This document shows, one piece after another, positions 151 to 55,616 of a stretch of DNA of 64,000 bases. The stretch's first letter is position 1. The number at the start of each line of letters is the position of its first letter. The stretch is from Candidatus Kaiserbacteria bacterium (GTDB taxonomy: Bacteria > Patescibacteriota > Minisyncoccia > Phycocordibacterales > UBA918). A model generated the notes under the pieces. That model had not been told where the DNA came from. It was given only the letters and a program-made list of their open reading frames with translations, and searched no databases. The DNA lies in assembly GCA_016699245.1 (NCBI GenBank), contig CP064968.1, forward strand, positions 219,386 to 283,385, read 5' to 3'. A program made the translations under genes and the position numbers.

Positions 151-837
151 TCACCACACTATTGGTGTTTTCTTGTTTTGTTTTAGATAGGTGTTTGTCA
201 TACTAAAGTGCTTTGAGCCGAAGAAACCTGAGCGCGCAGAAAAAGGGGAGGGGTGTGGTGCGGTGAGTATGAGATGTTTGGTGGTGTCAATAAACACACT
301 TTTCTTTTGCGCATTATTACCCCAAAGCAAAAACACGACATGTTCTTTTTCATTAGAAATTTTTTGAATGACCGCATTGGTAAAAGTTTCCCAACCAATG
401 TCCTTGTGTGAGTTTGGTGCGCCATCACGTACGGTGAGAGTAGTATTGAAAAGAAATACCCCCTGTTCCGCCCAGTGTGTAAGATTACCATGCGTGCGAA
501 GCGGAATCCCCAAATCATTTTGGAGTTCTTTAAATATATTTTTAAGTGAAGGTGGTATGCGAACTTCGTCTGGCACTGAAAAACAAAGTCCATGTGCTTG
601 GCCTTCACCATGGTAGGGGTCTTGACCGAGAATGACTACTTTGATTGCATCAAAGGGGCAAACTGAAAAAGCATTAAAAACAAATGGTAGAGGAGGGTAC
701 ACAGGCTTATGCGTACGGTACTCTTTGCGCACCGTGCGCATGAGATCAGCAAAATACGGCTTCTGGAACTCCTCCTTAAGGACTTCTTTCCACGATGATT
801 CAAAATCCGTATGCATTCTGCATAGTATAGCGCACAT
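151..837 (-). CDS. ung: Uracil-DNA glycosylase (family 1)
   Basis: Motifs VVILGQDPYHG...QAHGLCFS, HPSPFSA, typical UNG length. Confidence 0.9.
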   Translation of the reverse strand: MCAILCRMHTDFESSWKEVLKEEFQKPYFADLMRTVRKEYRTHKPVYPPLPFVFNAFSVCPFDAIKVVILGQDPYHGEGQAHGLCFSVPDEVRIPPSLKNIFKELQNDLGIPLRTHGNLTHWAEQGVFLFNTTLTVRDGAPNSHKDIGWETFTNAVIQKISNEKEHVVFLLWGNNAQKKSVFIDTTKHLILTAPHPSPFSARSGFFGSKHFSMTNTYLKQNKKTPIVW

Positions 838-43303: not shown

Positions 43304-45331
43304 CTATGCACGGTCTTGGCTAATGTACTTTAGAAATGCTTTATTGTTTGGTGCTCTACCAAGAAATTTTTTGATTAAGGTCATTTCATCGATAGAGCCT
43401 CCTTTTTCCAAAATCCATGTGCGGTAGTCATTCCCTGTTTTTGTGTTAAGGATTCCTTCACTTTCAAATCTTGTAAACATATCCTGTGCATACACTTTTG
43501 CCCACGCATACGAATAGTACCCAGCCTCATATCCTCCGACGATATGACCGAATCCTGCTGGAAAAAGTTGAGTTTTAGGTAGAGTATGACCAACTATATC
43601 TTTTACCATTTGACGATAAATTTCTTGTGGAGCACCCGGTGCTCTTTCAAAATGCAATTTCATGTCAAAAAGAGACAAAAGCATTTGTCGCAAGTACATC
43701 GTTGAAATTCTAAATTTTTGTGCACGTAACATGTTTGTAATTAACATCTCTGGTAATCGTGCATTTGTTTTATAATGTCCAGAGATTTTTCTGAGAATAT
43801 CTTTGTTCCACCCCCAGTTCTCGAGCATTTGTGAGGGCATTTCCACGAAATCCCACGCCACATGAAAACCAGCTTGCGACTCGTATCGTGTCTTCGTAAG
43901 TACATCATGCATAATGTGTCCAAATTCGTGAAAAAATGTTTCAACCTCATCATGCGAAAGTAGAGATGGGTTTTCTTTGGATGGTTTTGAAAAATTACAG
44001 ACAAGTGCAGCAAGAGGAGCAATGTAGTGCCCCTCTTTGACTCTGCCGTCAATAAGGTCAAATGCTGCAGCATGTCCGTACTTTCCATCGCGGGGGAAAA
44101 GATCCATAGAAAAATATGCAAGTATCTTTTTGTTCTCAGTAATAGCATAAAGTTCAACATCAGGGTGCCAGAGAGGATAGTCTAAAACTCTTTCAAATTT
44201 TACACTGAAAAGTTTCTGGTATGTTCCAAAAACTCCTTCCCGCACCTTTTCAAAAGGAAAATACTCACGAATTTTCTCTGAATCAACAGAATACTTTTGC
44301 TTTTGTAGTTGATTCACATAATACGAATCGTAGTATTCAATTGAGACACGAGGGTTTTTTGTAAATTCTCGCTTGAACGAAAGTAGTTCGTTCTTGTCAT
44401 TTTGTGCACCTTTTTCAACTTTTTTCACAATACTATTGAGAAACTTCATGACGTTTTCAGGTGTTTTTGCCATACGCTCCTCTATTGCATAGTGTGCAAA
44501 TGTTTTATAGTCCAGCAATTTCGCATTTGCTTGACGTAAAGCTATGATTCGCTTAAGGAGCTTGATGTTTGCTGGTCCCCCCTTTCGTGCATTTTTATCA
44601 ACAATTTCCTTGCGTTTTAAATCATTTGGAGAATTCTCCAAAAATGGTCCAATTTCTGGATACTCAAGTGACACAAGATATCTCCCCCTGCTGTCTTTTT
44701 TGAGACTAGAAAGAAATCTATTCGAAAGGCCGATAGCCTCATCGGCAGTGAGTGTAATATAGTCTTTGTAATCATTGATGTTTTTTCTAAAGGTAATTGA
44801 AAGTCGAGAAAGTTCCTTGAGATTTTTCTTAAGTACTTCTTGTTTTCTCTTCGGTAGACCAAAGCCCATACGACGATACCCACGCATAGTATCGTCAAAA
44901 AGAATTTTGTCTTCGCCGTGAAGTTTTTCTTTTTTTTCAGCGTACTCACACAGTGCTCTATAGATACCCTCGTCGTACACGACATCAACAATCAAGTGCG
45001 AAAATTCTTCAGTAACCTTGTGAGCCATTTCTCGAACTGATTTTTTAGGTGATACTTCAGACAAAAAGCCTACGTAATGAATTTTCTGGCCATATTCACG
45101 ACCACATTGTTCCAACGCACATACAGTATTTTCAAATGTACGTTCAGAAGATGGAATTTTCTTTATAACATCGTAATCATTCTTTAGTTCAGAAATTGCT
45201 TTATTAGGAAAATTTCTAAAATGTTTTGGTTGCCAATCAACCCACGCAAAATCACTTTTGCTCAGTGTTTTTACGGGTAAATCTTTTGGGTCTAATTGTG
45301 CCTTAGTATTCAGTACGCTTTTTTTCGACAT
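43304..45331 (-). CDS. M3 family oligoendopeptidase (thimet/Dcp-like)
   Basis: FFHEFGHIMH zinc HExxH motif in M3 context; start chosen at MSKKSVL. Confidence 0.8.
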   Translation of the reverse strand: MSKKSVLNTKAQLDPKDLPVKTLSKSDFAWVDWQPKHFRNFPNKAISELKNDYDVIKKIPSSERTFENTVCALEQCGREYGQKIHYVGFLSEVSPKKSVREMAHKVTEEFSHLIVDVVYDEGIYRALCEYAEKKEKLHGEDKILFDDTMRGYRRMGFGLPKRKQEVLKKNLKELSRLSITFRKNINDYKDYITLTADEAIGLSNRFLSSLKKDSRGRYLVSLEYPEIGPFLENSPNDLKRKEIVDKNARKGGPANIKLLKRIIALRQANAKLLDYKTFAHYAIEERMAKTPENVMKFLNSIVKKVEKGAQNDKNELLSFKREFTKNPRVSIEYYDSYYVNQLQKQKYSVDSEKIREYFPFEKVREGVFGTYQKLFSVKFERVLDYPLWHPDVELYAITENKKILAYFSMDLFPRDGKYGHAAAFDLIDGRVKEGHYIAPLAALVCNFSKPSKENPSLLSHDEVETFFHEFGHIMHDVLTKTRYESQAGFHVAWDFVEMPSQMLENWGWNKDILRKISGHYKTNARLPEMLITNMLRAQKFRISTMYLRQMLLSLFDMKLHFERAPGAPQEIYRQMVKDIVGHTLPKTQLFPAGFGHIVGGYEAGYYSYAWAKVYAQDMFTRFESEGILNTKTGNDYRTWILEKGGSIDEMTLIKKFLGRAPNNKAFLKYISQDRA

Positions 45332-45899
45332 CGTGTAAGAAGTTTTTGTATTCAGTAAATACGCTGTTAAACTCTGAGAGAATTTGATTTTTGAGACGTC
45401 TGTTGAGCACATTGCTAATTTCTTGGTATACCATGAGCCTATCTTCAATATGTGTACCAAAGTGAGACAAAAATGATGAGTGATCATCGAAATACTCCTC
45501 AACTATAGAACGCATATTGTGGATTTTATCAGCTGCAACCACAATGAGTGCTCGTTCCGATGCGTCTTTAATTTGTTTTAAGTACTCTTTTTTTTGGAAA
45601 AAGATATTTTTTCGATCGTAATCGGAAACAGGGGGTTCAGTGAGTGCTACAACAATATCTCGTACTGCACCACCAAAGTCGTCCTCGAGTTCCTTTTCTG
45701 TGTAGTCAGTATCCTCGAGCGTATCATGGAGAAGTGCAGCCACAATAGTATCCTCATCAGTAGTATAGTCTGCCACAATAGTTGCCACAGCAAAAAGATG
45801 CGTGACATAGGGATACGGCACACTTCCCTTCCGTACCTGGTCTTTGTGAAGCACTGAAGCAGCCTTAATTGCTTGTTCTATTGCGTACGAGTAGGCCAC
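45303..45899 (-). CDS. HD-domain small alarmone ((p)ppGpp) hydrolase-like protein (RelA/SpoT N-terminal HD homologue)
   Basis: VTHLFAVATIV...LLHDTLEDT motifs (H...HD...ED). Confidence 0.6.
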   Translation of the reverse strand: MAYSYAIEQAIKAASVLHKDQVRKGSVPYPYVTHLFAVATIVADYTTDEDTIVAALLHDTLEDTDYTEKELEDDFGGAVRDIVVALTEPPVSDYDRKNIFFQKKEYLKQIKDASERALIVVAADKIHNMRSIVEEYFDDHSSFLSHFGTHIEDRLMVYQEISNVLNRRLKNQILSEFNSVFTEYKNFLHDVEKKRTEY

Positions 45900-45904
45900 A
45901 ATGA

Positions 45905-46201
45905 TTATTTTTTATTCTTTTCGTCTTGTGCTTTTGCCTTTTCATCATCTGCACGCTTTGAGGCATCAGCAAATTTTTGTGCAAGGACTGAATGCTGTGT
46001 TGCAAGTTTTGCATTCTCTGTATGCATCTCTGTCGCCTCACGTTGAATTTTCAAGAGTTCGGCTTCTGCTGTGTTTACTTCTTGTTGTTTTGATTTAAGA
46101 CGAGCTTCAATTTGTTGTAATTTGCTTGCGATTGTTCGTTGAGAAACTTCAAGTTTTTGCTTGTCTTCGTTTATTCGTTTAAGTTCTGTTGCTGCATCCA
46201 T
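45905..46201 (-). CDS. Small coiled-coil protein
   Basis: Heptad-rich K/E/Q sequence; start uncertain. Confidence 0.3.
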   Translation of the reverse strand: MDAATELKRINEDKQKLEVSQRTIASKLQQIEARLKSKQQEVNTAEAELLKIQREATEMHTENAKLATQHSVLAQKFADASKRADDEKAKAQDEKNKK

Positions 46202-46299
46202 GAAATGTATACTTAATAACTCTTTTGATAATTTCTTCTTTGTTATTATACTCAACCAGTACACTATTTGCACAGTTTGTTTTACCCATGTGCGTGAAC

Positions 46300-47085
46300 T
46301 TATTTCTGGGCATTTTTATGAATTTCTTGAAGCTTTCGACCACATGACTCACGGTAGGGGCAAAATTCGCACGCATCTCCAGACTTTGGAAACACCTCAG
46401 AATCTAAACACCCCTTAATCTCTATAAGTGTGGGCGGAAGCCAGTCATTTTCTCCTTTGCATGGTACTACGGTAGTTTCAAAATGAAGTGTATCATGGAA
46501 GCCATCTTTGTTGCTTTGACCATTTGCATACACAAAGTATCCAGTCTCGTCCACTTCAAAACCATTCTTTGTGAAAAGCCATTGATAGACACCTATCTGA
46601 CGTTTGTACTGTGCTTCCCACGAAGAATCAGCAAGTGTCAGAATGGTTCCCTCCTTTGCAGTTGCTTTATAATCGACAACAATAAGTTTACCGTCTCGCC
46701 TAAGCCAAATGTCATCTACTGCACCTGAAATCGTCAGTTTAGTTTCTGGATCAACATATGCAATACCTTCGAAGTTGTCTCGCCATATATCCATATGCTT
46801 ATGGGCAAAGGGTACTGCATCGATGTGGTATTTTTCCATAAGTGGATGAGCCGTCTGTGAAGCACGGTATACATCAAACTCTTTCTTGAAAAGAGCATCT
46901 ACCGCTACATTAAGAGTAAATGCTGGCCCACGCGGACGTGCAGTACCGAGTTTATTGTCAATATAGAAGCATCGTGGACATTCTACAAATAAATCAATTT
47001 TTGAGCGTGAAAGTCGCCACTTTGATCCTCCGTAATTCCAATCTGCATTTCTGTTTGGATTATACTTTTTTACAAATGTTCCCAT
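46300..47085 (-). CDS. Cas4-like PD-(D/E)xK nuclease with 4-Cys Fe-S cluster (stand-alone; no CRISPR nearby)
   Basis: N-terminal ECPRCFY Cys, D...VVDYK nuclease motifs, QIGVYQW (Q..Y motif), C-terminal CEFCPYRESC. Confidence 0.65.
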   Translation of the reverse strand: MGTFVKKYNPNRNADWNYGGSKWRLSRSKIDLFVECPRCFYIDNKLGTARPRGPAFTLNVAVDALFKKEFDVYRASQTAHPLMEKYHIDAVPFAHKHMDIWRDNFEGIAYVDPETKLTISGAVDDIWLRRDGKLIVVDYKATAKEGTILTLADSSWEAQYKRQIGVYQWLFTKNGFEVDETGYFVYANGQSNKDGFHDTLHFETTVVPCKGENDWLPPTLIEIKGCLDSEVFPKSGDACEFCPYRESCGRKLQEIHKNAQK

Positions 47086-47164
47086 AGCTTTCAGTATATC
47101 ATCATGTATCGTAGTACAAAAAATCCTGCATGTGCAGGATTTTTTGTACTACACGTTAATGGTG

Positions 47165-47713
47165 TTAGTTTGCCTTGAATGTAACTTCTCCGCCAACGAT
47201 GACCTTGTCCTCAGTAAGTGAGAATCCAGCGTCACCGGCGTTTGTGAAAAATACCACTTGGTATGAACTGTCCTTAATAGTTCCTCGCATGAGCTCCACC
47301 GATGTAGGTGTAAGTCCCTCTGCTTCGCTGTACCTCGCTGCGCCGAGGACTTTACCTGAGGTACCGTCAACATAATCGCGTACTACTATCCAGCCGTTCT
47401 TTGTCGGAAACTCAACTTTCGAAAGTGTAACTACTTTTCCAGCTGCTTGGTCTTTTACGTCGAGTGCACCTTTGCCAACTACTGTATCAGTTGATGTGAC
47501 ATCTTTCGTCACTTCTTTCGAATCAGCCTTCACCTCTTCTGACTTCTCTTCATCTGCTTTTTCAACTTGTTCAGTATCGGTAGTCTTTTCTTCGGGCACT
47601 TGCTTTGCTTCTGGTGTTGAAGAAAATACCCACACAAGCAGACCTCCAATGAGCAAACCAGTAATGAACGCTACAACGGTCTTCTGACTCTCCTGCTTTT
47701 CAACTTCTGACAT
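47165..47713 (-). CDS. Hypothetical membrane-anchored protein with acidic K/E-rich linker
   Basis: Single N-terminal TM; no motif. Confidence 0.4.
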   Translation of the reverse strand: MSEVEKQESQKTVVAFITGLLIGGLLVWVFSSTPEAKQVPEEKTTDTEQVEKADEEKSEEVKADSKEVTKDVTSTDTVVGKGALDVKDQAAGKVVTLSKVEFPTKNGWIVVRDYVDGTSGKVLGAARYSEAEGLTPTSVELMRGTIKDSSYQVVFFTNAGDAGFSLTEDKVIVGGEVTFKAN

Positions 47714-47828
47714 ATTCGTACGAATGACTATAACGCTTAATAATGATGGTGCTGATTATACCATGTAACAATAATGAGGATGTGAGCCACATTACTCGAC
47801 AAATTGATATACAACTTGTCAAAAAAAC

Positions 47829-48656
47829 TTATTTTGAGCCACAGAGTGATGATGCTTCGTGGAGCACAGCATCAAATTTTTGTTTTGGCAACCCGAGTTC
47901 GTGTAAAACAGAAGGGTTTTTACTAATATCAGAGCACAAGATGAATCCATGCTGAAGCAAGTACTGTTTCTGCCCGGTACTCAAATGTGTGAGCACTGTA
48001 ATTGGATATGTGCCAAGTCGCTCAATTTTTTTGTGGAGTGAATCATGCTTGGGATAATCCCAACTGAGTAATTTGATTCCACTACACTCAGCATACTTTA
48101 TAGCAGCATTTGTGAATTTTGTGTTGGTGATGAGGTACAGGGCAACAATACCATTAGTGTCGTGTTTTCCAATGCGTGCAGATTGTAAATCAAGATAGCG
48201 CGCATATGAGTACATTGCTACCTGCAAATCAGATTTGATACCTGGCTTTGCATGAAATTTTGCTTCTGCAATGAATGTTTCTGAGGGCGAATAAGCAGCA
48301 AGGTCAACTTCATGTACTGCACATTTTCCTCGTAGGACAAGACGACGCTTTGTCGTGTACCCTTCTGCTTCAAAAATTTTTCCAAGAAAATCTTCAAAGG
48401 GGAAACCCGTAGGGCCAAGGCTGAATACTGCACGGCGTAGTGAGTATTTTGCCGCAACAGGATCATCACTTTCACGGAGTAACTGAAATGCTTTTTGATA
48501 AATCAATTGCGTTTTCATGCCTTCCTTAAGTGATGTCTCTACTTCCATCAAAATACGCATGATTTCCTCCGGTCGCGCACCGGCTCTCTTAAGAGAAGAT
48601 ATAAGTTTATGTGACTTAAATTCTTCAGTTGTGCCATCGGCTTTTGTGATTATCAT
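47829..48656 (-). CDS. ATP-cone domain fused to a restriction-endonuclease-like PD-(D/E)xK (Mrr-cat-like) domain
   Basis: N-terminal MIITKADGTTEEF...AAKYSLRRA (ATP-cone); C-terminal VHEVDLAAY...FIAEAKFH (D...E.K); start overlaps the mnmA stop by 4 bp. Confidence 0.6.
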   Translation of the reverse strand: MIITKADGTTEEFKSHKLISSLKRAGARPEEIMRILMEVETSLKEGMKTQLIYQKAFQLLRESDDPVAAKYSLRRAVFSLGPTGFPFEDFLGKIFEAEGYTTKRRLVLRGKCAVHEVDLAAYSPSETFIAEAKFHAKPGIKSDLQVAMYSYARYLDLQSARIGKHDTNGIVALYLITNTKFTNAAIKYAECSGIKLLSWDYPKHDSLHKKIERLGTYPITVLTHLSTGQKQYLLQHGFILCSDISKNPSVLHELGLPKQKFDAVLHEASSLCGSK

Positions 48657-49714
48657 AAAATATCATTAATTATCCCACCTCCAAGACATGCTCTTCCTGC
48701 ATAGAGTACACAGGACTGCCCCACTGATGGCATGTCGACATGTGCATCTTGTACAGTAAGCATAGCATGGCTCTCAGAAGTCATTTCTACACTAACGTTG
48801 AAAGGTTTTTGACGATAACGGAATTGCGCCTCACATGTGGGGGGAAGAGATTCGGTAATGAGATTGATGTCAGACAGCACGACGCGAGCGTTCGCACATG
48901 TCCGCTGTTCTGTAGAAACAGTGATTGTATTTGCACGTGTATCTTTCTCAACAATGTAATACGGACGTGTTACATCCTGTGAGGGGAGGATAGAAAAGCC
49001 ATGGCGTTGCCCTCGTGTGTAGTAGAGTGCACCATCATGTGAGCCTATCACCTGCCCTTCCTCATTAAGTACATTTCCCGGCGCCACGTCGACGTAGTGT
49101 GACAAAAAGTCTTTAATATCGACTGGTCCAAGGAAACAGATACCCTGACTGTCGTGTTTTGCAGATGTGGGCAAAGTTGCTCTTTTCGCCTCAATTCGTA
49201 TTTCTGATTTTTCTGTATCACCTACAGGAAAAAGTGTGTGTGCAAGTTGTTCCTGTGAAAGCGTCCAAAGAAAGTAACTTTGATCTTTATCTGAGTCGAC
49301 TCCGCGAAGCAACGTATACCGCCCATTGTTCATCTGCACTTCTGCATAGTGCCCTGTGGCAATTTTTGTTGCACCGTGCTCGATTGCAAAGCAAAGAAAT
49401 GCTCCGAACTTCACATGCTGGTTACACATCACATCTGGGTTCGGTGTACGGCCGAGCGTGTATTCTCGAATCATATAATCAGCCACCTCATTCTTATATG
49501 CCTCCTCGCCGTCAAAGGTGATAAATGGTACTTCGAGGTGGGCAGCAACGCGCATTGCGTCGAGACGTTCTTTTTCCCAGTTACAGGTTATAAAATCAGG
49601 TTGCCAAGTTTTGATGAAGACCGCTGTGGCACGGTGTCCAGCGCGGAGCACACGTACGAGTGCGACGCTTGAATCTACTCCTCCCGACACCCCAACAAAA
49701 ACGTTTTCTTTCAT
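48653..49714 (-). CDS. mnmA: tRNA 2-thiouridine(34) synthase
   Basis: VGVSGGVDSSVA PP-loop, conserved catalytic Cys positions. Confidence 0.85.
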   Translation of the reverse strand: MKENVFVGVSGGVDSSVALVRVLRAGHRATAVFIKTWQPDFITCNWEKERLDAMRVAAHLEVPFITFDGEEAYKNEVADYMIREYTLGRTPNPDVMCNQHVKFGAFLCFAIEHGATKIATGHYAEVQMNNGRYTLLRGVDSDKDQSYFLWTLSQEQLAHTLFPVGDTEKSEIRIEAKRATLPTSAKHDSQGICFLGPVDIKDFLSHYVDVAPGNVLNEEGQVIGSHDGALYYTRGQRHGFSILPSQDVTRPYYIVEKDTRANTITVSTEQRTCANARVVLSDINLITESLPPTCEAQFRYRQKPFNVSVEMTSESHAMLTVQDAHVDMPSVGQSCVLYAGRACLGGGIINDIL

Positions 49715-49752
49715 AGTATGAGCATCAAAATAGCATAGTGAATCTCAAAATA

Positions 49753-50736
49753 CTATCGCAGATAGCGAGCCTTATTGATCTTGTGTTCTTCAAAGGTTTT
49801 AGCATAATGGAATGTGCCATCTGGTGCGGTGAGGTAATACAGATAGTCTGATTTTTCTGGGTATAGAACGGCTTCAATTGACTCAATTCCGGGATTTGCA
49901 ATCGGTGTTGGTGGGAGGCCGGTGTTGGTATAGGTGTTGTATGGGGATTCAATTGCTAAATCATCGAGCGTGAGTTCACTACTAGTCTTTCCTAAAATGT
50001 AGTTAAAAACTGCGTCTACTTGAAGTGGCATTTCTGCAGCAAGTCTATTTTGTAAAATACCGGAGACCATACGCTTTGAAACATTGTCCTTTGCCTCACG
50101 TTCGATAATAGAGGCAAGAATAATAACCTCATTTTCGGTGAATCCAGACGCAGTGATTGCTTCCGTGTATGCACTCAGCCGTGACGCACTTGTATTTGTA
50201 AGGAGTAGTCTGAGTTCGTCTAGCGTAGTGCTCGTAGAAATAAAATACGTGTCTGGGAAAAGGTACCCTTCGTACGGGAGAAACAGCGCAGTATCGAGGG
50301 TGCCTAAAGCATCAGCGAGATACGTGTCTATATCACTCGCTTTGAATCCCTCAGGAAGTGTGATGCTCACGAGTGGTGAGCGATGTTCCCCTGATGTGAT
50401 TGCCTCAGCCACTTCACGAGTAGAAAGGGGCATCTCAAATGAATACGTTCCTGCTTGTACATAGACTTCCTTATACTCATAGAGCAGTATCATATAGAGA
50501 TACAGAGAAGATCGCACGACATTTTGTGCTTTGAGTTTTTCTGTTATTGCACTCACCGTAAGTCCTTCATCAATGACGATGTCAGTCAGAAGAGGAAATG
50601 TGTGCGGCGGCGTATTGTAGAAACGATATCCAAAGGATAGTCCAGCGAATGCAAGTACAAGAAATGCGGTGGATAGAAAGATGTGTGTAGACAATCGACG
50701 ACGCTTGCGCTCTGTGTAGTATTCCTTAAAATCCAT
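49753..50736 (-). CDS. mltG: Endolytic murein transglycosylase MltG (YceG-like)
   Basis: N-terminal TM, ASIIEREA motif. Confidence 0.75.
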   Translation of the reverse strand: MDFKEYYTERKRRRLSTHIFLSTAFLVLAFAGLSFGYRFYNTPPHTFPLLTDIVIDEGLTVSAITEKLKAQNVVRSSLYLYMILLYEYKEVYVQAGTYSFEMPLSTREVAEAITSGEHRSPLVSITLPEGFKASDIDTYLADALGTLDTALFLPYEGYLFPDTYFISTSTTLDELRLLLTNTSASRLSAYTEAITASGFTENEVIILASIIEREAKDNVSKRMVSGILQNRLAAEMPLQVDAVFNYILGKTSSELTLDDLAIESPYNTYTNTGLPPTPIANPGIESIEAVLYPEKSDYLYYLTAPDGTFHYAKTFEEHKINKARYLR

Positions 50737-50739
50737 ACA

Positions 50740-52119
50740 TTAACCAATAGGCAAGTTTGAAGGTGGTTCTGCACGTTTTGAAGGAATACGAGCGAGTGTT
50801 GGTGTTGAAGCAACCTTTCCAGGAATATGAAACATAGTTGCAAGTTCTTCGGTGGTCATTACTTTCGTCTTGTCATTCTTATTATGATTTGTGTACGTAC
50901 GTCTTTTGTATTCATCAAGTTCCTGTTTCTTGAGTGCATCCTTCTTTCTTCCAGAAGGATCTTGCCACCAATTCCAGTCAAAGTCAGTACGCCACTTAAC
51001 ACCAATGGAATTGCGATTCAGGTCGTCGTATGAACGCCATGCGGTGATGAGCGTCCCGAGTCGTTCACCGGGGTTGAAGTTTTCATTTTTTGCAATATAC
51101 ATCCCGCGGATGGCGACATTGAATGCACTCTTACTGAGACTGCGCTCAATAGCTTTCAAGGTGTCTTTTTCTGTGTCAGTGAGAAGCATCATGACATTGC
51201 CTTTCTTCTCTTCATCCCCACGTTCTTTTACTGCTTTGTCGATGATGCTTTTCATTTCTGCACGCGCGGGACCTTTCCAATCCGGTGCAAGACCTAATGA
51301 ACCTTCTTTTAAAGTCATTTCTCTGTTTGCATCTATAAGTATCTGTACCCACATATGCTCGCCAGGGCCCATACTACCGAGTGCCTCAAGCATTGAAGTG
51401 ATAGGGTCAATTTTCTCTTCCTCTTTGGGCATATTTTGAAGACCATATTCCACGTATGTCTTTATAGGATATGCGTCAGCTTTTTTTGGACCGAAGTGAA
51501 CAGAAAAATATGAAAAACGTGATGGATCCCATGGAATTTCAGCAGTGTAATCAATATCGAGTTCGTGTACTTCGATGCCAGGATGCTGTGCATATAACTG
51601 AGTCTCAACAATATTTTTAAATTTCTTTTTAGGGGTACTGATGTAAAAACGTACGTCACCAGCACGAGATACGAGCTCTAGCCCATAGCGTGGCGGATGC
51701 TTGCCGTCCCAGTATGTTTGCACATGGTTGTCGGGAGCGGCAGATTGATACATTTGCATAAGCACAAGCTCCATTGCTTCAGGTGATTTAAAGATTTCTT
51801 GTGGTAATTTGATTTCAAGAGTTACCCGTCCCTGTGCAACATCAAATTTCTTCTGCACGAAGTACAGCCAATACTCAAACAAGAGTCCAAAGGTAATAAT
51901 TGGAAGCCAGATAGGAAATGAGACCACCATCATTTCGTACACGATATTTGAATTAATATCGAGTTTTTGAAACACAACTATTGCGACAAGAAGTCCTATG
52001 CCCACCAAAAGCCATGCAGCATTTGCACCAAATTTTTCTAGTGTGTTTACCGGACCTTCAATTAAGCCAATCATGTACATTATTGTACAGTAAATCCCCC
52101 ATGAAGACTGCGTCTTCAT
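50740..52119 (-). CDS. Hypothetical membrane protein (two N-terminal TM helices, large cytoplasmic domain)
   Basis: No family recognised; 3 bp from mltG start. Confidence 0.4.
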   Translation of the reverse strand: MKTQSSWGIYCTIMYMIGLIEGPVNTLEKFGANAAWLLVGIGLLVAIVVFQKLDINSNIVYEMMVVSFPIWLPIITFGLLFEYWLYFVQKKFDVAQGRVTLEIKLPQEIFKSPEAMELVLMQMYQSAAPDNHVQTYWDGKHPPRYGLELVSRAGDVRFYISTPKKKFKNIVETQLYAQHPGIEVHELDIDYTAEIPWDPSRFSYFSVHFGPKKADAYPIKTYVEYGLQNMPKEEEKIDPITSMLEALGSMGPGEHMWVQILIDANREMTLKEGSLGLAPDWKGPARAEMKSIIDKAVKERGDEEKKGNVMMLLTDTEKDTLKAIERSLSKSAFNVAIRGMYIAKNENFNPGERLGTLITAWRSYDDLNRNSIGVKWRTDFDWNWWQDPSGRKKDALKKQELDEYKRRTYTNHNKNDKTKVMTTEELATMFHIPGKVASTPTLARIPSKRAEPPSNLPIG

Positions 52120-52139
52120 GGGGGATTCTGTGTATGAGA

Positions 52140-53165
52140 TTATTCAGTGAGGATGTAGTTGCCGTCAGGGAGTTTCTTGAAGAGTGTCGTATCTTGAAGA
52201 TTAACGATAATGGTGTTGTCTTTTACGTAACGCTCTTTACGCACCTTATCAATGATCTCTTCACGAGTAAGTGGACCATGTGTGGTGAGAATGTCACGAA
52301 GCACATCTTTTACAACACCGGTAGAGTATCCCCACTCTGAGAGTGCGTAGAGTCCTCGCCCGACGAGCACAAAACGACGGTCCTTTATGAGTTCGTTGTG
52401 TGTTGTTGCAACGTGTGCGCTTTTATTGAAGAGTTCCTTGATAGCATCAGCAACTTCCTTAAAGTGCATCGGTGATCCATGGCGCTTTACCGCGAGGTAT
52501 GCATAGTCACGAATTCCCTTTGCACGTACATTGGGACTCGTTGCATGTCCCCATTCACCGAGTGGATTGCGGTCGATTTGCTTTGATATTGAGAGCCATC
52601 GCTTGAGAATTTTTTCATCACGATATTGCTCTTCAATTTCTCCAAGATGTTCCTTAAGGCGAGCAATGATTTCATCTTCAGCAATAAGTTCGTCCTCTTC
52701 AAGGGAATTGAAGATACTCACCAGTGCTCCTTCTACCGTGTCAGAAATCTTTTTTTCAACATACCAACGGTGCGAAAAGGCATTGTTTTCCTTGATTCTT
52801 TTGAAAGGGTCGCCAATCACGAGAAGAAAGTAAATATGATTACGAAGTGACTGATCTTTTGAAAGTTCAGTGAGAAGCTCTTGTTCATTAATGACTCCAC
52901 CAAGAGCATGGAGTGCAGTTTGTAACTCATCAAATACTTCCTGAAATTCTTTATATACAGGTGACTTCTGGATAGATTGAATACCATAGTTTTCAATCTG
53001 ACGCACACGTTCGCGGGTAATATTGTATGTCTGACCAATAGACTCAAGAGTGCATGTTTCAGCACTATTCACGAGACCATATCGTTTTTCAAGTACATCA
53101 CGAGCGCGCTCGGGGAGCACTGAAAGAAGCTTTTTTGTTACTTGCTTTGGTTTAAATGATATCAT
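52140..53165 (-). CDS. Hypothetical DNA-binding protein with N-terminal sigma-70 region-4-like HTH
   Basis: LESIGQTYNITRERVRQIE resembles sigma region 4.2; rest unassigned. Confidence 0.5.
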   Translation of the reverse strand: MISFKPKQVTKKLLSVLPERARDVLEKRYGLVNSAETCTLESIGQTYNITRERVRQIENYGIQSIQKSPVYKEFQEVFDELQTALHALGGVINEQELLTELSKDQSLRNHIYFLLVIGDPFKRIKENNAFSHRWYVEKKISDTVEGALVSIFNSLEEDELIAEDEIIARLKEHLGEIEEQYRDEKILKRWLSISKQIDRNPLGEWGHATSPNVRAKGIRDYAYLAVKRHGSPMHFKEVADAIKELFNKSAHVATTHNELIKDRRFVLVGRGLYALSEWGYSTGVVKDVLRDILTTHGPLTREEIIDKVRKERYVKDNTIIVNLQDTTLFKKLPDGNYILTE

Positions 53166-53234
53166 GGTATGGTCTAATTATTGGTTTTTTGCTCAAAAAT
53201 GTGTTCCTATTTTTATCACGATAAAGGGATTGAG

Positions 53235-55616
53235 TCAAGCCTCTCCTATCAGATTAATAATTTTGTTTTGGATATATACCACTCGAGTTATGTTTGCGGG
53301 CAATTTTGATGCGAGAGTTTCATCTGCTTTAAGCACGGCAAGTACCTCGGATTCCGCCGAATCTATGGGGATAATGATGGTTCCGCGCATCTTTCCATTG
53401 ATTTGAACACTCAAAGTAACACTACTTTCGATTAAATATGTAGGGTTTGAGGCAGGCCAGTTAGACATGTGGATAGAACCACTATTCCCCGCTTCATACC
53501 ACAATTCTTCAGTAATGTGTGGTGCAAATGGGGCAAGTAACCGAAGAAAGAGTAAATATGAATTCTTGGTCAAACCTAATTTTTCGGCATGATTGATGAA
53601 AATCATGAGTGCACTGATAGCAGTATTGAACTTATATACTGCTATATCAGCCGACACTTTTTCAATCGTCTTGTGAAGTAGGGATGTTGTCTCATGTGAT
53701 TCAGTCTCACGCACATGCTCAGCAAGGCCATACACACGCTCGAGGAATCGACGAAGCCCCGCAATGCCTCCCATGTCCCAGGGATAGTTGGCGAGTTCGC
53801 CATACGGACCCATGAAGGCAAGATACATCTTCACCGTGTCAGCACCAAGAATTTTAACTTGTTCATCGGGGTCGACCACGTTGCCTTTTGACTTACTCAT
53901 CTTGTTGCCGTCGGGACCGAGGACAAGTCCACGATTGATGCGCATCTTGTACGGCTCAGGTGAGGTCACAAGATCAAGGTCAAAGAGTGCCTTTTGCCAG
54001 AAGCGTGAATAGAGCACGTGCATCGTGGTGTGCTCAGAACCACCAAAGTACACATCGACTGGCATCCAGGTTTTTTGTGCTTCAAGAGATGCGGGGACTT
54101 CAGCATTCTGAGTATCGAGATAGCGCAAAAAGTACCACGAAGAGTCTACAAACGTATCCATAGTCTCGACTTCAGGAGTCCAACCTTCACCAAAGATACG
54201 TGTCACGCGTTCACGAAGTTCAACACTTTTCGCAAGTGGCGGTTCGCCCGTGGGGGTGAAGTCGACATCGGTGGGTAGGTGCCATGGTAGGTGTTCCTTA
54301 GGAATCGGGTGTGGTGTACCTTCTTTGTCATACACAATAGGAATTGGTACCCCCCAATAGCGCTGTCGACCAATAGACCAATCACGAAGGCGATAAGTAT
54401 TCGTAAGTTCCCCACCAACTTTCAGAGTAATAGCACCCTTAGCCTCTTCCGAGTCCATGCCCGTAAATTCTCCAGAGTTGATCAGTGTATCCGAAAGAGT
54501 AAATGGAAGTTCTTCATTACCTTTTATTACCTGCACAATAGGAAGTGTAAATTTCTTTGCAAAGGCAAAGTCTCTCTCGTCGTGTGCGGGTACTGCCATA
54601 ATGGCACCGGTGCCGTAGCCTTTGAGCACATAGTCAGCAATGAATACAGGGATACTTTTGCCCGTAGCGGGATTAGTGGTGGTGATGCCTGTGAGGCACA
54701 CGCCCGTCTTCTCCTTTTCTACTTTTGTACGAAGCATTTCATCCTTCTGCGATGCTTCTTTTATATACGCCTCTACTTCTGCCCAGTTTTGGATGACTTC
54801 TTTGTTCTTGAGGACAAGGTCGTGCTCGGGTGCTAAGACCACGTAGGTGGCACCGTAGAGCGTGTCAGGGCGCGTGGTAAAGATATCGAGTGTGTCTCCG
54901 GTAGAGAGAGTGAAAGGGATTTTGGCACCCTTTGAACGCCCAATCCACTGTCGTTGTGCTTCCTTAATGGGTTCGGGCCACGCAAGCGTATCAAGATCAT
55001 CGATGAGTCTATCAGCATAATCAGTAATTTTGAGCATCCACTGCGTCATGTCTTTTTTTATAATGGTGTTGCCGCAACGCTCACAGGTGTTGCTACTTGT
55101 GACTTGCTCGTTTGCAATCACGGTATTGCATGCAGGACACCAATTCACCACACCCTTACCGCGATACGCAATTCCCTTTTCAAAAAACTGTGTAAACATC
55201 CACTGCGTCATCTTGAAGTATTCTGGGTCAGTAGAACTTACAGAAACGTCCCATGAAAACGCATTACCCATGCTCTCGAGTTGCTTCTTCATGTATGCGA
55301 TATTGGATTCAGTCCATGCTTTTGGGTCAAGTTTGTTTTTAATAGCAGCATTTTCAGCAGGAAGTCCAAACGCATCAAAACCAATTGGGAAAAGCACTTG
55401 CTTTCCCTGCATGCGTCTCGCACGAACGTAGATGTCTACCACCGCAAAAGCAAACCAGTGCCCAACATGAAGATTGCCCGATGGATACGGCCATTCGACG
55501 AGTACATACTCTTTTTCTTTGTTTGTGTCGCGTGCACCGAGGTTGTATATCCCAGATTCTTTCCAGGATTTCTGCCACTTCTGTTCTATTTCCTCGTGAT
55601 TGAACTTTTTATGCAT
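53235..55616 (-). CDS. leuS: Leucyl-tRNA synthetase
   Basis: PYPSGNLHVGH (HIGH), KMSKSKGN (KMSKS), CP1 editing domain. Confidence 0.9.
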   Translation of the reverse strand: MHKKFNHEEIEQKWQKSWKESGIYNLGARDTNKEKEYVLVEWPYPSGNLHVGHWFAFAVVDIYVRARRMQGKQVLFPIGFDAFGLPAENAAIKNKLDPKAWTESNIAYMKKQLESMGNAFSWDVSVSSTDPEYFKMTQWMFTQFFEKGIAYRGKGVVNWCPACNTVIANEQVTSSNTCERCGNTIIKKDMTQWMLKITDYADRLIDDLDTLAWPEPIKEAQRQWIGRSKGAKIPFTLSTGDTLDIFTTRPDTLYGATYVVLAPEHDLVLKNKEVIQNWAEVEAYIKEASQKDEMLRTKVEKEKTGVCLTGITTTNPATGKSIPVFIADYVLKGYGTGAIMAVPAHDERDFAFAKKFTLPIVQVIKGNEELPFTLSDTLINSGEFTGMDSEEAKGAITLKVGGELTNTYRLRDWSIGRQRYWGVPIPIVYDKEGTPHPIPKEHLPWHLPTDVDFTPTGEPPLAKSVELRERVTRIFGEGWTPEVETMDTFVDSSWYFLRYLDTQNAEVPASLEAQKTWMPVDVYFGGSEHTTMHVLYSRFWQKALFDLDLVTSPEPYKMRINRGLVLGPDGNKMSKSKGNVVDPDEQVKILGADTVKMYLAFMGPYGELANYPWDMGGIAGLRRFLERVYGLAEHVRETESHETTSLLHKTIEKVSADIAVYKFNTAISALMIFINHAEKLGLTKNSYLLFLRLLAPFAPHITEELWYEAGNSGSIHMSNWPASNPTYLIESSVTLSVQINGKMRGTIIIPIDSAESEVLAVLKADETLASKLPANITRVVYIQNKIINLIGEA

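What the first reader, a model, noticed from the sequence alone, without database searches (positions are those of the whole stretch)
47829..49714. ATP-cone::PD-(D/E)xK nuclease fusion translationally coupled to mnmA
A 275-aa protein combines an N-terminal ATP-cone (the nucleotide-sensing module of NrdR and ribonucleotide reductases; MIITKADGTTEEF...AAKYSLRRA) with a C-terminal Mrr-catalytic-like restriction-endonuclease fold (HEVDLAAY...FIAEAKFH). Its ATG overlaps the stop of the tRNA thiouridylase gene mnmA (ATGA). An (d)ATP-gated nuclease co-transcribed with a tRNA-modification enzyme is not a described system to my knowledge. It could be a nucleotide-pool-sensing defence or abortive-infection nuclease, or a regulatory nuclease.
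Basis: partly seen in the sequence, partly recalled or inferred. Interest (0 to 1): 0.65.

Follow-up and report, generated by a model that had tools for sequence, protein, structure and literature searches.

The report
ATP-cone nuclease next to mnmA
This is a real, strongly conserved gene for a nuclease carrying an ATP/dATP-sensing domain; it belongs to a large, catalogued but untested family, looks like a housekeeping or stress enzyme rather than an antiviral system, and is linked to the tRNA gene mnmA only in one bacterial lineage.

Summary
On the minus strand, mnmA (48653-49714) and a 275-aa ORF (47829-48656) overlap by ATGA. The ORF has three domains: ATP-cone, an Mrr/AF1548-type PD-(D/E)xK nuclease, and an AF1548-like C-terminal helical domain.

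The catalytic signature E88, D118, E131-x-K133 is invariant in 37 diverse homologues.

It is not a one-off fusion. More than 4,000 homologues, nearly all 260-290 aa, occur in Patescibacteria, Bacteroidota, Chlorobi, Chlamydiota and many Archaea. The solved structure AF1548 (PDB 1Y88) is an N-terminally truncated member.

mnmA lies directly upstream, usually with stop/start overlap, in essentially all relatives above 50% identity. This is part of a conserved multi-gene housekeeping block. The link fades below 50% identity and is absent outside that lineage.

Elsewhere the recurrent partners are Usp and an operon of beta-CASP nuclease, thymidine/AMP-phosphorylase-family enzyme and PRPP synthetase.

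The gene is under strong purifying selection and evolves more slowly than mnmA. It has no relatives in phage collections and no defence-system match.

Best reading: an adenine-nucleotide-gated housekeeping or stress nuclease, probably in nucleic-acid turnover, salvage or repair. A defence role is unlikely. The function has not been tested.

The parts
48653..49714 (-). mnmA, tRNA 2-thiouridine(34) synthase, 353 aa, complete
   Evidence: NCBIfam NF001138 MnmA E=8e-110, aa 5-349 over model positions 2-345 of 345. Pfam tRNA_Me_trans HUP, PRC-barrel and C-terminal domains.
48653..48656 (-). ATGA stop/start overlap between mnmA and the nuclease gene
   Evidence: Read directly from the sequence. Equivalent 4-nt or 1-nt overlaps occur in most relatives of 50-89% identity.
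47829..48656 (-). 275-aa three-domain protein: ATP-cone, AF1548/Mrr-type nuclease, AF1548-like C-terminal domain
48432..48656 (-). ATP-cone domain, aa 1-75
   Evidence: Pfam PF03477 E=4.6e-9, above the gathering score. The model shows a beta-hairpin plus helical bundle. Foldseek aligns this part to NrdA, NrdR and NrdD ATP-cones with probability 1.00. The N-domain profile hits NrdR at 1.2e-3. K5 is invariant; G8, K17, S21, T49 and Y71 are conserved in at least 90% of sequences.
48063..48407 (-). PD-(D/E)xK nuclease core, aa 84-198, with E88, D118 (codon 48303-48305), E131 and K133
   Evidence: Pfam Mrr_cat 21.8 bits against cutoff 21. 1Y88 E=4.3e-30. E88, D118, E131 and K133 are invariant in 37 sequences, as are C112, E116, R153, D156, T177, N178 and C191. 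PMC1821046 predicted the equivalent AF1548 residues D38, E51 and K53 as catalytic.
47847..48008 (-). AF1548-like C-terminal helical domain, aa 217-270, possibly helix-hairpin-helix-like
   Evidence: Pfam PF22357 E=1.6e-4 on the whole protein and 1.2e-5 on the isolated domain. AF1548's own C-domain gives sub-threshold HHH_5 (8e-4) and HhH-GPD (2.8e-3) hits. The profile against PDB gives only Rad51 N-domain at E=0.32. The HhH assignment is therefore suggestive only.
47165..47713 (-). p182, predicted membrane-anchored protein; conserved downstream neighbour in relatives above 50% identity
   Evidence: Present downstream in 11/11 and 59/59 loci of the two upper identity bands. No Pfam family.
46300..47085 (-). 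Stand-alone Cas4-like PDDEXK_1 nuclease (261 aa); the most persistent downstream neighbour
   Evidence: Pfam PDDEXK_1 E=3.4e-13. Sub-cutoff Cas4 similarity. Found downstream in 11/11, 59/59 and 20/33 loci by identity band.

Best explanation
The 275-aa ORF is an ordinary member of a widespread, ancient three-domain family. The family combines an N-terminal ATP-cone, a catalytically intact AF1548/Mrr-type PD-(D/E)xK nuclease, and a small helical, possibly HhH-like, nucleic-acid-binding domain. Most likely it is a chromosomal housekeeping or stress endonuclease. Its activity would be switched by the cell's adenine-nucleotide state (ATP versus dATP or low ATP) through the ATP-cone, probably by nucleotide-dependent oligomerisation as in RNR and NrdR. 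This parallels the way CARF domains gate the same nuclease fold in Can2/Card1. Its likely role is nucleic-acid turnover that feeds nucleotide and pentose salvage, or DNA repair; it is unlikely to be antiviral defence. The overlap with mnmA is a conserved operon junction specific to Patescibacteria and ensures co-expression within a long housekeeping gene array. It does not define a two-gene 'system'. Shown here: the architecture, active-site conservation, distribution, synteny statistics and purifying selection. Inferred: nucleotide gating, the substrate and the physiological role.
For: Architecture and fold.

Active site and ATP-cone: E88, D118, E131-x-K133 and ATP-cone K5 are invariant across 37 sequences of 33-56% identity.

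Fixed architecture: there are 414 clusters (at 50% identity) with E<1e-30, and nearly all of the listed hits are 260-300 aa and full length. Members occur in Bacteroidota, Chlorobi, Chlamydiota and many archaeal phyla.

Core-gene behaviour: over 55 syntenic loci the median identity is 56%, equal to MnmA and above YceG at 44%. dN is 0.067-0.139 against 0.109-0.284 for mnmA, and dN/dS is 0.03-0.06.

Not mobile or defence-associated.

Salvage or stress theme outside Patescibacteria: a beta-CASP nuclease lies directly downstream in 9 distinct loci. The tightly coupled operon nuclease / beta-CASP / thymidine-AMP-phosphorylase-family / ribose-phosphate diphosphokinase occurs in 5 loci spanning Flavobacteriia, Cytophagia and Chlamydiota. 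In Criblamydia that operon is flanked by phosphoketolase, glycogen phosphorylase and acetate kinase. Usp lies directly upstream in Bacteroidota and in an archaeon.

Repair theme in Patescibacteria: a Cas4-like nuclease and MGMT are conserved downstream, UDG is present in more distant loci, and MGMT is directly upstream in a Chlorobi locus.

Background: CPR bacteria and DPANN archaea carry a nucleoside/AMP pathway with form III-type RuBisCO (PMC5113843, PMC6389311).
Against: No biochemical data exist for any member, and the literature searches found none. No partner gene is universal, so the physiological role may differ between lineages. The salvage operon is not in this window. The Arg of the canonical ATP-cone K-R-D-G motif is Ala in this protein and in the bacterial consensus, although it is retained in the two Archaeoglobi sequences read (P0391, P0409). 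Ligand identity is therefore uncertain. DNA versus RNA as substrate is unresolved: the beta-CASP partner resembles RNA-cleaving aCPSF1/Cas14 below cutoffs, whereas the repair neighbours and the HhH hint point to DNA.
Confidence: 0.5

Rival explanations
1. RNA or tRNA-directed nuclease that works with MnmA, for example turnover or quality control of tRNAs carrying or lacking s2U34, expressed stoichiometrically by translational coupling.
For: mnmA lies directly upstream with stop/start overlap in more than 100 loci down to about 40% identity. The partner outside Patescibacteria is a beta-CASP enzyme closest to the RNA-cleaving aCPSF1/Cas14 types. From my own knowledge, nucleotide-sensing anticodon nucleases exist: PrrC senses GTP/dTTP and cuts tRNA-Lys at mnm5s2U.
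Against: The adjacency is embedded in a block where the YceG-mnmA and nuclease-Cas4-like junctions are about as persistent. No mnmA was found near any Bacteroidota, Chlorobi, Chlamydiota or archaeal member examined. Overlaps are common in this genome. The block mixes unrelated housekeeping functions.
Confidence: 0.13
2. Dedicated DNA-repair or recombination endonuclease (structure- or lesion-specific, resembling Hjc or XPF/Mus81 in having a PD-(D/E)xK core plus an HhH module), licensed by ATP/dATP.
For: A Cas4-like nuclease and MGMT are conserved downstream in Patescibacteria. UDG is nearby in distant loci. MGMT is directly upstream in Chlorobi. A UvrD/PDDEXK helicase-nuclease lies adjacent, on the opposite strand, in a Bacteroidales MAG. 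The C-domain gives HhH-like hints. JGI names some members 'Holliday junction resolvase-like'.
Against: The HhH assignment is below threshold. Geoglobus has a canonical Hjc two genes away, so the protein would not be the sole resolvase there. The most recurrent cross-phylum operon is catabolic.
Confidence: 0.2
3. Nucleotide-pool-sensing antiviral or abortive-infection nuclease. It would resemble a type IV restriction enzyme or Can2/Card1 and be triggered when infection perturbs ATP/dATP.
For: After AF1548, the nearest structural matches of the nuclease core are Cdn1/Can2 CARF nucleases and MspJI/AspBHI. One Chlorobi locus sits beside an EcoRV-type R-M remnant. Two members are plasmid-borne.
Against: The gene holds a fixed position in a conserved core block and is under strong purifying selection, evolving more slowly than MnmA. 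No relatives were found in IMG/VR or in phage genomes. PADLOC gives no match for it and finds no defence system nearby. The two plasmid copies sit in the metabolic four-gene operon.
Confidence: 0.08
4. Non-catalytic, nucleotide-responsive DNA-binding regulator, an analogue of NrdR that uses the nuclease fold for DNA binding.
For: It has the same sensor domain as NrdR. One source names a member 'Transcriptional repressor NrdR'.
Against: The full catalytic set E-D-ExK is invariant, which is not expected for a binding-only scaffold. There is no Zn-ribbon: the ATP-cone starts at residue 1.
Confidence: 0.04

Closest known systems
AF1548 of Archaeoglobus fulgidus (PDB 1Y88; Pfam Mrr_cat + AF1548-like_C)
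   Same: Same family. Sequence E=4.3e-30 over aa 90-273. Foldseek E=2.6e-15, target TM 0.77. Same D...ExK residues, predicted catalytic in PMC1821046.
   Different: The crystallised 199-aa chain lacks the ATP-cone. A 99%-identical 265-aa protein (P0391) carries a canonical one (MLRVRKRDGRLEEF...), so the PDB construct appears N-terminally truncated. Its function has never been tested.
ATP-cone of ribonucleotide reductases and NrdR
   Same: Same sensor domain by Pfam, fold and profile. The expected logic is ATP/dATP binding that changes oligomeric state (PMC9110341, PMC11226230).
   Different: The output here is a nuclease rather than an RNR or a Zn-ribbon DNA binder. The Arg after the invariant Lys is Ala in this protein and in the bacterial consensus.
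Mrr / MspJI / AspBHI type IV restriction nucleases
   Same: Same catalytic sub-fold and motif.
   Different: No winged-helix or SRA-type modification reader. This is a core gene in conserved synteny under strong constraint, not a sporadic island gene.
CARF-nuclease effectors Can2 / Card1 / Cdn1 / VC1899
   Same: A small-molecule sensor domain fused to an Mrr-like PD-(D/E)xK nuclease; the nuclease cores superpose. This is a useful mechanistic analogy for ligand-gated dimeric nucleases.
   Different: The sensor is an ATP-cone, not CARF. There is no CRISPR or CBASS context. It works like them but is not a member.
PrrC / RloC anticodon nucleases (from my own knowledge)
   Same: A nucleotide-sensing nuclease conceptually tied to a tRNA carrying the MnmA product.
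   Different: They use a HEPN nuclease and an ABC-type NTPase, and are linked to R-M systems. No sequence or fold relation was found here.

Membership tests
ATP-cone (PF03477) | Profile match above the curated threshold | tested here: met
   37.1 bits against cutoff 25.8, aa 1-75.
ATP-cone (PF03477) | Beta-hairpin cap plus four-helix bundle that superposes on RNR/NrdR cones | tested here: met
   Model elements E2-4, E10-12, H15-24, H29-41, H49-63 and H65-71, at pLDDT above 94. Foldseek hits to NrdA, NrdR and NrdD at probability 1.00.
ATP-cone (PF03477) | Conserved nucleotide-contacting residues (K-R of VxKRDG, downstream K, T) | tested here: inconclusive
   K5 is invariant; K17 and T49 are conserved in at least 90% of sequences. 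The Arg position is Ala here and in the bacterial consensus but Arg in the two Archaeoglobi sequences read. The mapping onto E. coli NrdA residues comes from my own knowledge.
ATP-cone (PF03477) | Binds ATP/dATP and changes activity or oligomeric state | not testable with these tools
   Needs ITC or DSF, SEC-MALS and activity assays.
PD-(D/E)xK nuclease, Mrr_cat (PF04471) / AF1548 family | Profile or sequence match | tested here: met
   Mrr_cat 21.8 bits against cutoff 21, which is marginal. 1Y88 E=4.3e-30. PF04471 is precomputed on most homologues.
PD-(D/E)xK nuclease, Mrr_cat (PF04471) / AF1548 family | Alpha-beta-beta-beta-alpha-beta core with E...D...(E/Q)xK conserved | tested here: met
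   Model elements H86-97, E101-109, E114-122, E127-133, H144-157 and E172-177. E88, D118, E131 and K133 are invariant in 37 sequences.
PD-(D/E)xK nuclease, Mrr_cat (PF04471) / AF1548 family | Metal-dependent phosphodiester cleavage | not testable with these tools
Type IV (Mrr-like) restriction enzyme | N-terminal modified-DNA reader domain; sporadic, island-associated distribution | tested here: not met
   The N-terminus is an ATP-cone. The gene holds a fixed core position across more than 100 genomes.
Known anti-phage defence systems (PADLOC-DB v2) | Significant match to a defence protein model, with system partners nearby | tested here: not met
   The best hit is AbiEi at E=0.035. Neighbours give only generic domain similarities: stand-alone Cas4-like, PP-loop and coiled coil.
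NrdR | N-terminal Zn-ribbon followed by an ATP-cone; about 150 aa | tested here: not met
   The ATP-cone begins at residue 1 with no N-terminal CxxC pairs. NCBIfam gives no NrdR hit.
   mnmA lies within 1.2 kb upstream in 14/14, 74/74, 26/35 and 1/13 loci by identity band. It is embedded in block synteny and absent in the other phyla and in Archaea.

The most novel reading that the evidence does not exclude
The ATP-cone nuclease is the adenylate-sensing entry gate of a nucleic-acid catabolic and salvage route. The proposed route runs: nuclease, then beta-CASP exonuclease, then nucleoside/NMP phosphorylase, then ribose-phosphate enzymes, then pentose or energy metabolism. The nuclease would switch on when ATP falls or the dATP/ATP ratio shifts. 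That would make it the first ATP-cone known to control a hydrolytic nuclease. It would also explain why the gene is a core gene in the nucleotide-scavenging CPR bacteria and occurs in several DPANN-type archaeal lineages.
Probability: 0.3. Interest if true: 0.75.

Novelty: new member of a known kind. Interest (0 to 1): 0.48.

Why it matters
ATP-cones are known experimentally only as switches of ribonucleotide reductases and of the repressor NrdR. A conserved nuclease carrying the same sensor would be a new output for this allosteric module. The family occurs across Patescibacteria, several archaeal phyla including DPANN-type lineages, Bacteroidota and Chlamydiota. Such a nuclease could be a direct link between cellular energy or dNTP status and nucleic-acid degradation, salvage or repair. 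For CPR organisms, which depend on scavenged nucleotides, it is a candidate core function that is easy to test in vitro. The work also corrects the picture of PDB 1Y88, which is missing its sensor domain. It redirects attention from mnmA to the cross-phylum operon of beta-CASP nuclease, phosphorylase and PRPP synthetase with Usp.

Tried and rejected
- Folding the C-terminal domain alone without an alignment gave pLDDT 54. That was too poor for a fold search, so the HhH idea rests only on sub-threshold profile hits.
- Six literature searches found no paper on this architecture. Their terms were AF1548, and ATP-cone combined with restriction endonuclease, nuclease, Mrr, Holliday junction resolvase or CPR. 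The only relevant item was the 2007 GOS prediction of AF1548's catalytic residues.
- The original ATP-cone paper (PMID 10939243) is not held.
- The promoter and terminator scan of 45000-53500 gave fewer promoter-like sites than shuffled sequence. It found no minus-strand terminator around the two genes, so it was uninformative.
- NCBIfam has no model for the protein.
- I considered and rejected the following: NrdR (no Zn-ribbon), a type IV restriction enzyme (no reader domain, and core-gene behaviour), and a one-off gene fusion or annotation artefact (thousands of full-length homologues).
Full report
**Observation.** On the minus strand the window encodes mnmA (48653-49714, 353 aa) and a 275-aa ORF (47829-48656). 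The sequence shows the mnmA stop TGA and the downstream ATG sharing ATGA at 48653-48656. MnmA is complete: NCBIfam MnmA gives 8e-110 over the whole model. Pfam finds three domains in the 275-aa protein:
- ATP-cone, aa 1-75, E=4.6e-9, above the gathering score.
- Mrr_cat, aa 84-198, 21.8 bits against a cutoff of 21.
- AF1548-like_C, aa 217-270, E=1.6e-4.

The only solved relative is AF1548 (PDB 1Y88), at E=4.3e-30 over aa 90-273. An AlphaFold model built on 37 homologues is very confident, with pLDDT 95.5 and pTM 0.90. Foldseek returns 1Y88 first (E=2.6e-15). Next come the nuclease domains of Cdn1/Can2/VC1899 and MspJI/AspBHI. For the N-terminal part it returns the ATP-cones of NrdA, NrdR and NrdD.

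**Is the nuclease intact?** I aligned 37 representatives at 33-56% identity to the window protein. E88, D118, E131 and K133 are invariant; this is the helix-Glu plus D...ExK signature. C112, E116, R153, D156, T177, N178, C191, W199, P202 and P218 are also invariant. In the ATP-cone, K5 is invariant, and G8, K17, S21, T49 and Y71 are conserved in at least 90% of sequences. The 2007 GOS paper predicted the equivalent AF1548 residues (D38, E51, K53) as catalytic (PMC1821046). One caveat: the Arg of the canonical K-R-D-G motif is Ala here and in the bacterial consensus, while the two Archaeoglobi sequences I read keep it.

**How common is the architecture?** A word-indexed search found 4,356 homologues. 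The top 120 are nearly all 275 aa and 67-93% identical, from Kaiserbacteria and Paceibacterota. An exhaustive HMMER scan of 50%-identity representatives found 1,117 clusters (414 at E<1e-30). Almost all of the listed hits are 260-300 aa and match end to end. A profile search added cultured Bacteroidota (Aequorivita, Arenibacter, Solitalea, Winogradskyella), Chlorobi and Bacteroidales MAGs. Sources name these proteins 'restriction endonuclease', 'ATP cone domain-containing protein', 'ATPase' or 'Holliday junction resolvase-like endonuclease', and once, wrongly, 'NrdR'. A search seeded with AF1548 found the same three-domain proteins in Archaeoglobi, Nanoarchaeota, Aenigmarchaeota, Korarchaeota, Bathyarchaeia and Altiarchaeales. 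A protein 99% identical to AF1548 is 265 aa long and starts with a textbook ATP-cone. The crystallised 199-aa AF1548 therefore appears to be an N-terminally truncated gene model. This is a catalogued, ancient, fixed architecture and not a novel fusion. I found no functional study.

**The mnmA linkage.** I fetched 80 genome loci and 80 metagenome loci and located the window's neighbours by tblastn.
- With at least 1.1 kb of upstream flank, mnmA lies within 300 nt upstream on the same strand in 14/14 loci at 65% identity or more, 70/74 at 50-65%, 17/35 at 40-50% and 1/9 below 40%.
- Allowing up to 1.2 kb, and including the later loci, the counts are 14/14, 74/74, 26/35 and 1/13.
- The junction is usually ATGA, TAATG, TAGTG or TGATG, meaning a 4-nt or 1-nt stop/start overlap.

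So the linkage is not unique to this genome. It is, however, one junction of a larger conserved array:
- a Sigma70_r4/HARE-HTH protein (p341)
- a membrane protein (p459)
- YceG
- MnmA
- the nuclease
- a membrane protein (p182, or MgtC in distant loci)
- a Cas4-like PDDEXK_1 nuclease
- MGMT (in most relatives)
- an HD_4 hydrolase

The Cas4-like gene is downstream in 11/11, 59/59 and 20/33 loci by identity band, and MGMT in 7/11, 46/59 and 18/33. In the window itself, 8 of 57 adjacent same-strand ORF pairs overlap and 13 more are within 20 nt. An overlap alone is therefore weak evidence of partnership.

**Contexts outside Patescibacteria.** None of the Bacteroidota, Chlorobi, Chlamydiota or archaeal loci has mnmA nearby. 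Other partners recur instead.
- A 457-aa beta-CASP/RMMBL metallo-hydrolase lies directly downstream in nine distinct loci (L077, L081, L084, L163, L166, L167, L168, L174, L175).
- Five of those loci carry the full, often overlapping, operon: nuclease, beta-CASP, thymidine-phosphorylase-family protein, ribose-phosphate diphosphokinase. They come from Arenibacter, Aequorivita, a metagenome contig, a Pontibacter plasmid and a Criblamydia plasmid.
- NCBIfam places the phosphorylase in the PRK04350 subfamily, with an AMP-phosphorylase score of 507 against a cutoff of 535. It finds the beta-CASP closest, below cutoffs, to aCPSF1 and Cas14.
- In Criblamydia the operon is flanked by phosphoketolase, glycogen phosphorylase and acetate kinase.
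- A Usp gene lies directly upstream in six Bacteroidota-type loci. In Geoglobus the upstream gene is a permease-Usp fusion.
- Ferroglobus has CorA overlapping the start.
- A Chlorobi locus has MGMT 12 nt upstream.

**Defence or housekeeping?** Across 55 fully syntenic loci the nuclease is as conserved as MnmA (median 56% for both) and more conserved than YceG (44%). Against four close orthologues its dN is 0.067-0.139, compared with 0.109-0.284 for mnmA. Synonymous sites are saturated, and dN/dS is 0.03-0.06 in the two pairs where it could be computed. No relative was found in IMG/VR or in 50,697 phage genomes. Only two of 72,556 plasmids carry one, and both copies sit in the metabolic operon. 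PADLOC gives nothing significant for the protein and finds no defence system among ten neighbours. This is the profile of a core gene. It does not look like a gene caught up in an arms race with phages.

**Most likely mechanism.** Shown here: a sensor domain of the ATP-cone type, an intact Mrr/AF1548-type active site, a small C-terminal helical domain, and a rigid predicted arrangement of the three. Inferred: adenine nucleotides bound by the cone change the oligomeric or conformational state and thereby license or block cleavage. This is what ATP-cones do in RNR and NrdR (PMC9110341, PMC11226230). It also parallels the way CARF domains gate the same nuclease fold in Can2/Card1, which are the nearest structural neighbours after AF1548. 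The physiological role is less certain. The cross-phylum operon with a beta-CASP nuclease, a nucleoside/NMP phosphorylase and a PRPP synthetase, next to Usp, points to nucleic-acid breakdown and pentose or nucleotide salvage under energy stress. The Patescibacteria neighbourhood (Cas4-like nuclease, MGMT, UDG) points to DNA repair. CPR bacteria and DPANN archaea, where the family is well represented in these searches, are known to run a nucleoside/AMP pathway (PMC5113843, PMC6389311). I give the composite explanation about 0.5: a nucleotide-gated housekeeping or stress nuclease whose mnmA link is lineage synteny. Within that, salvage or turnover is somewhat more likely than dedicated repair.

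**Rivals.**
- A MnmA-partnered tRNA or RNA nuclease, about 0.13. The coupling supports it; block synteny and its absence elsewhere count against it.
- A dedicated repair or recombination nuclease, about 0.2.
- An antiviral or abortive-infection nuclease, about 0.08.
- A non-catalytic NrdR-like regulator, about 0.04. This is contradicted by the invariant catalytic residues and the missing Zn-ribbon.

**Verdict.** The window gene is a typical new member of a known but uncharacterised family. The family itself is interesting because no ATP-cone-controlled nuclease has been studied, and the hypothesis is directly testable in vitro.

Noticed in passing
PDB 1Y88 / P0391: The crystallised AF1548 chain (199 aa) lacks an ATP-cone. 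A 99%-identical 265-aa protein begins MLRVRKRDGRLEEF..., a canonical ATP-cone. The structural-genomics target therefore appears to rest on an N-terminally truncated gene model.
   Followed up: partly
L081, L166, L168, L174 (Criblamydia plasmid), L175 (Pontibacter plasmid): A recurrent, translationally coupled four-gene operon: ATP-cone nuclease, beta-CASP/RMMBL hydrolase, thymidine/AMP-phosphorylase-family protein, ribose-phosphate diphosphokinase. It often lies next to Usp, P-type cation ATPases, archaeal-type GAPDH and class I aldolase. In Criblamydia it lies next to phosphoketolase and acetate kinase. It looks like an undescribed nucleic-acid-to-pentose catabolic module.
   Followed up: partly
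window 46300-47085 (-): A stand-alone Cas4-like PDDEXK_1 nuclease with cysteines at both ends of the protein (CPRC near the N-terminus, CEFCPYRESC near the C-terminus) and no other cas genes nearby. It is the most persistent downstream neighbour of the ATP-cone nuclease across Patescibacteria.
   Followed up: partly
window 45900-46300 compared with L001 8354-8545 and others: Most relatives carry a short MGMT-type alkyltransferase (PCHR motif) right after the Cas4-like gene. The window has no MGMT homologue anywhere, and only 26 nt separate the flanking genes, so the gene appears to be lost in this genome.
   Followed up: partly
window 52140-53165 (-): A 341-aa protein with an N-terminal Sigma70 region 4 and a HARE-HTH domain. 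It is the most conserved gene of the block, with median identity 69% over 55 loci. This architecture is unusual for a presumably essential factor.
   Followed up: no
window 45303-45899 (-): A small (198 aa) HD_4 protein resembling only the hydrolase domain of RelA/SpoT. It is conserved at the end of the block.
   Followed up: no
window 47829-48656 (-), residues C112 and C191: Two cysteines are invariant across bacterial and archaeal homologues: C112 just before the H-E-x-D motif, and C191 after the last core helix. They could form a disulfide, bind a metal or sense redox state. No coordinates were available to measure their distance.
   Followed up: no
window 48676-48682 (-): A strong Shine-Dalgarno-like GGAGGTG lies inside the 3' end of mnmA (it encodes GGG). 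It sits 19-25 nt upstream of the nuclease ATG, which is farther than the usual spacing.
   Followed up: no
window 1-64000: 54 of 64 non-overlapping ORFs of at least 90 aa are on the minus strand. GC is 43%, about 89% of the window is coding, and no tRNA genes were found. This is a compact Paceibacteria/Kaiserbacteria-type genome segment, probably on one replichore.
   Followed up: no
window 154-801 (-): A family-1 uracil-DNA glycosylase homologue, 56% identical to the UDG that lies beside the nuclease block in distant relatives. Here it is 47 kb away.
   Followed up: no
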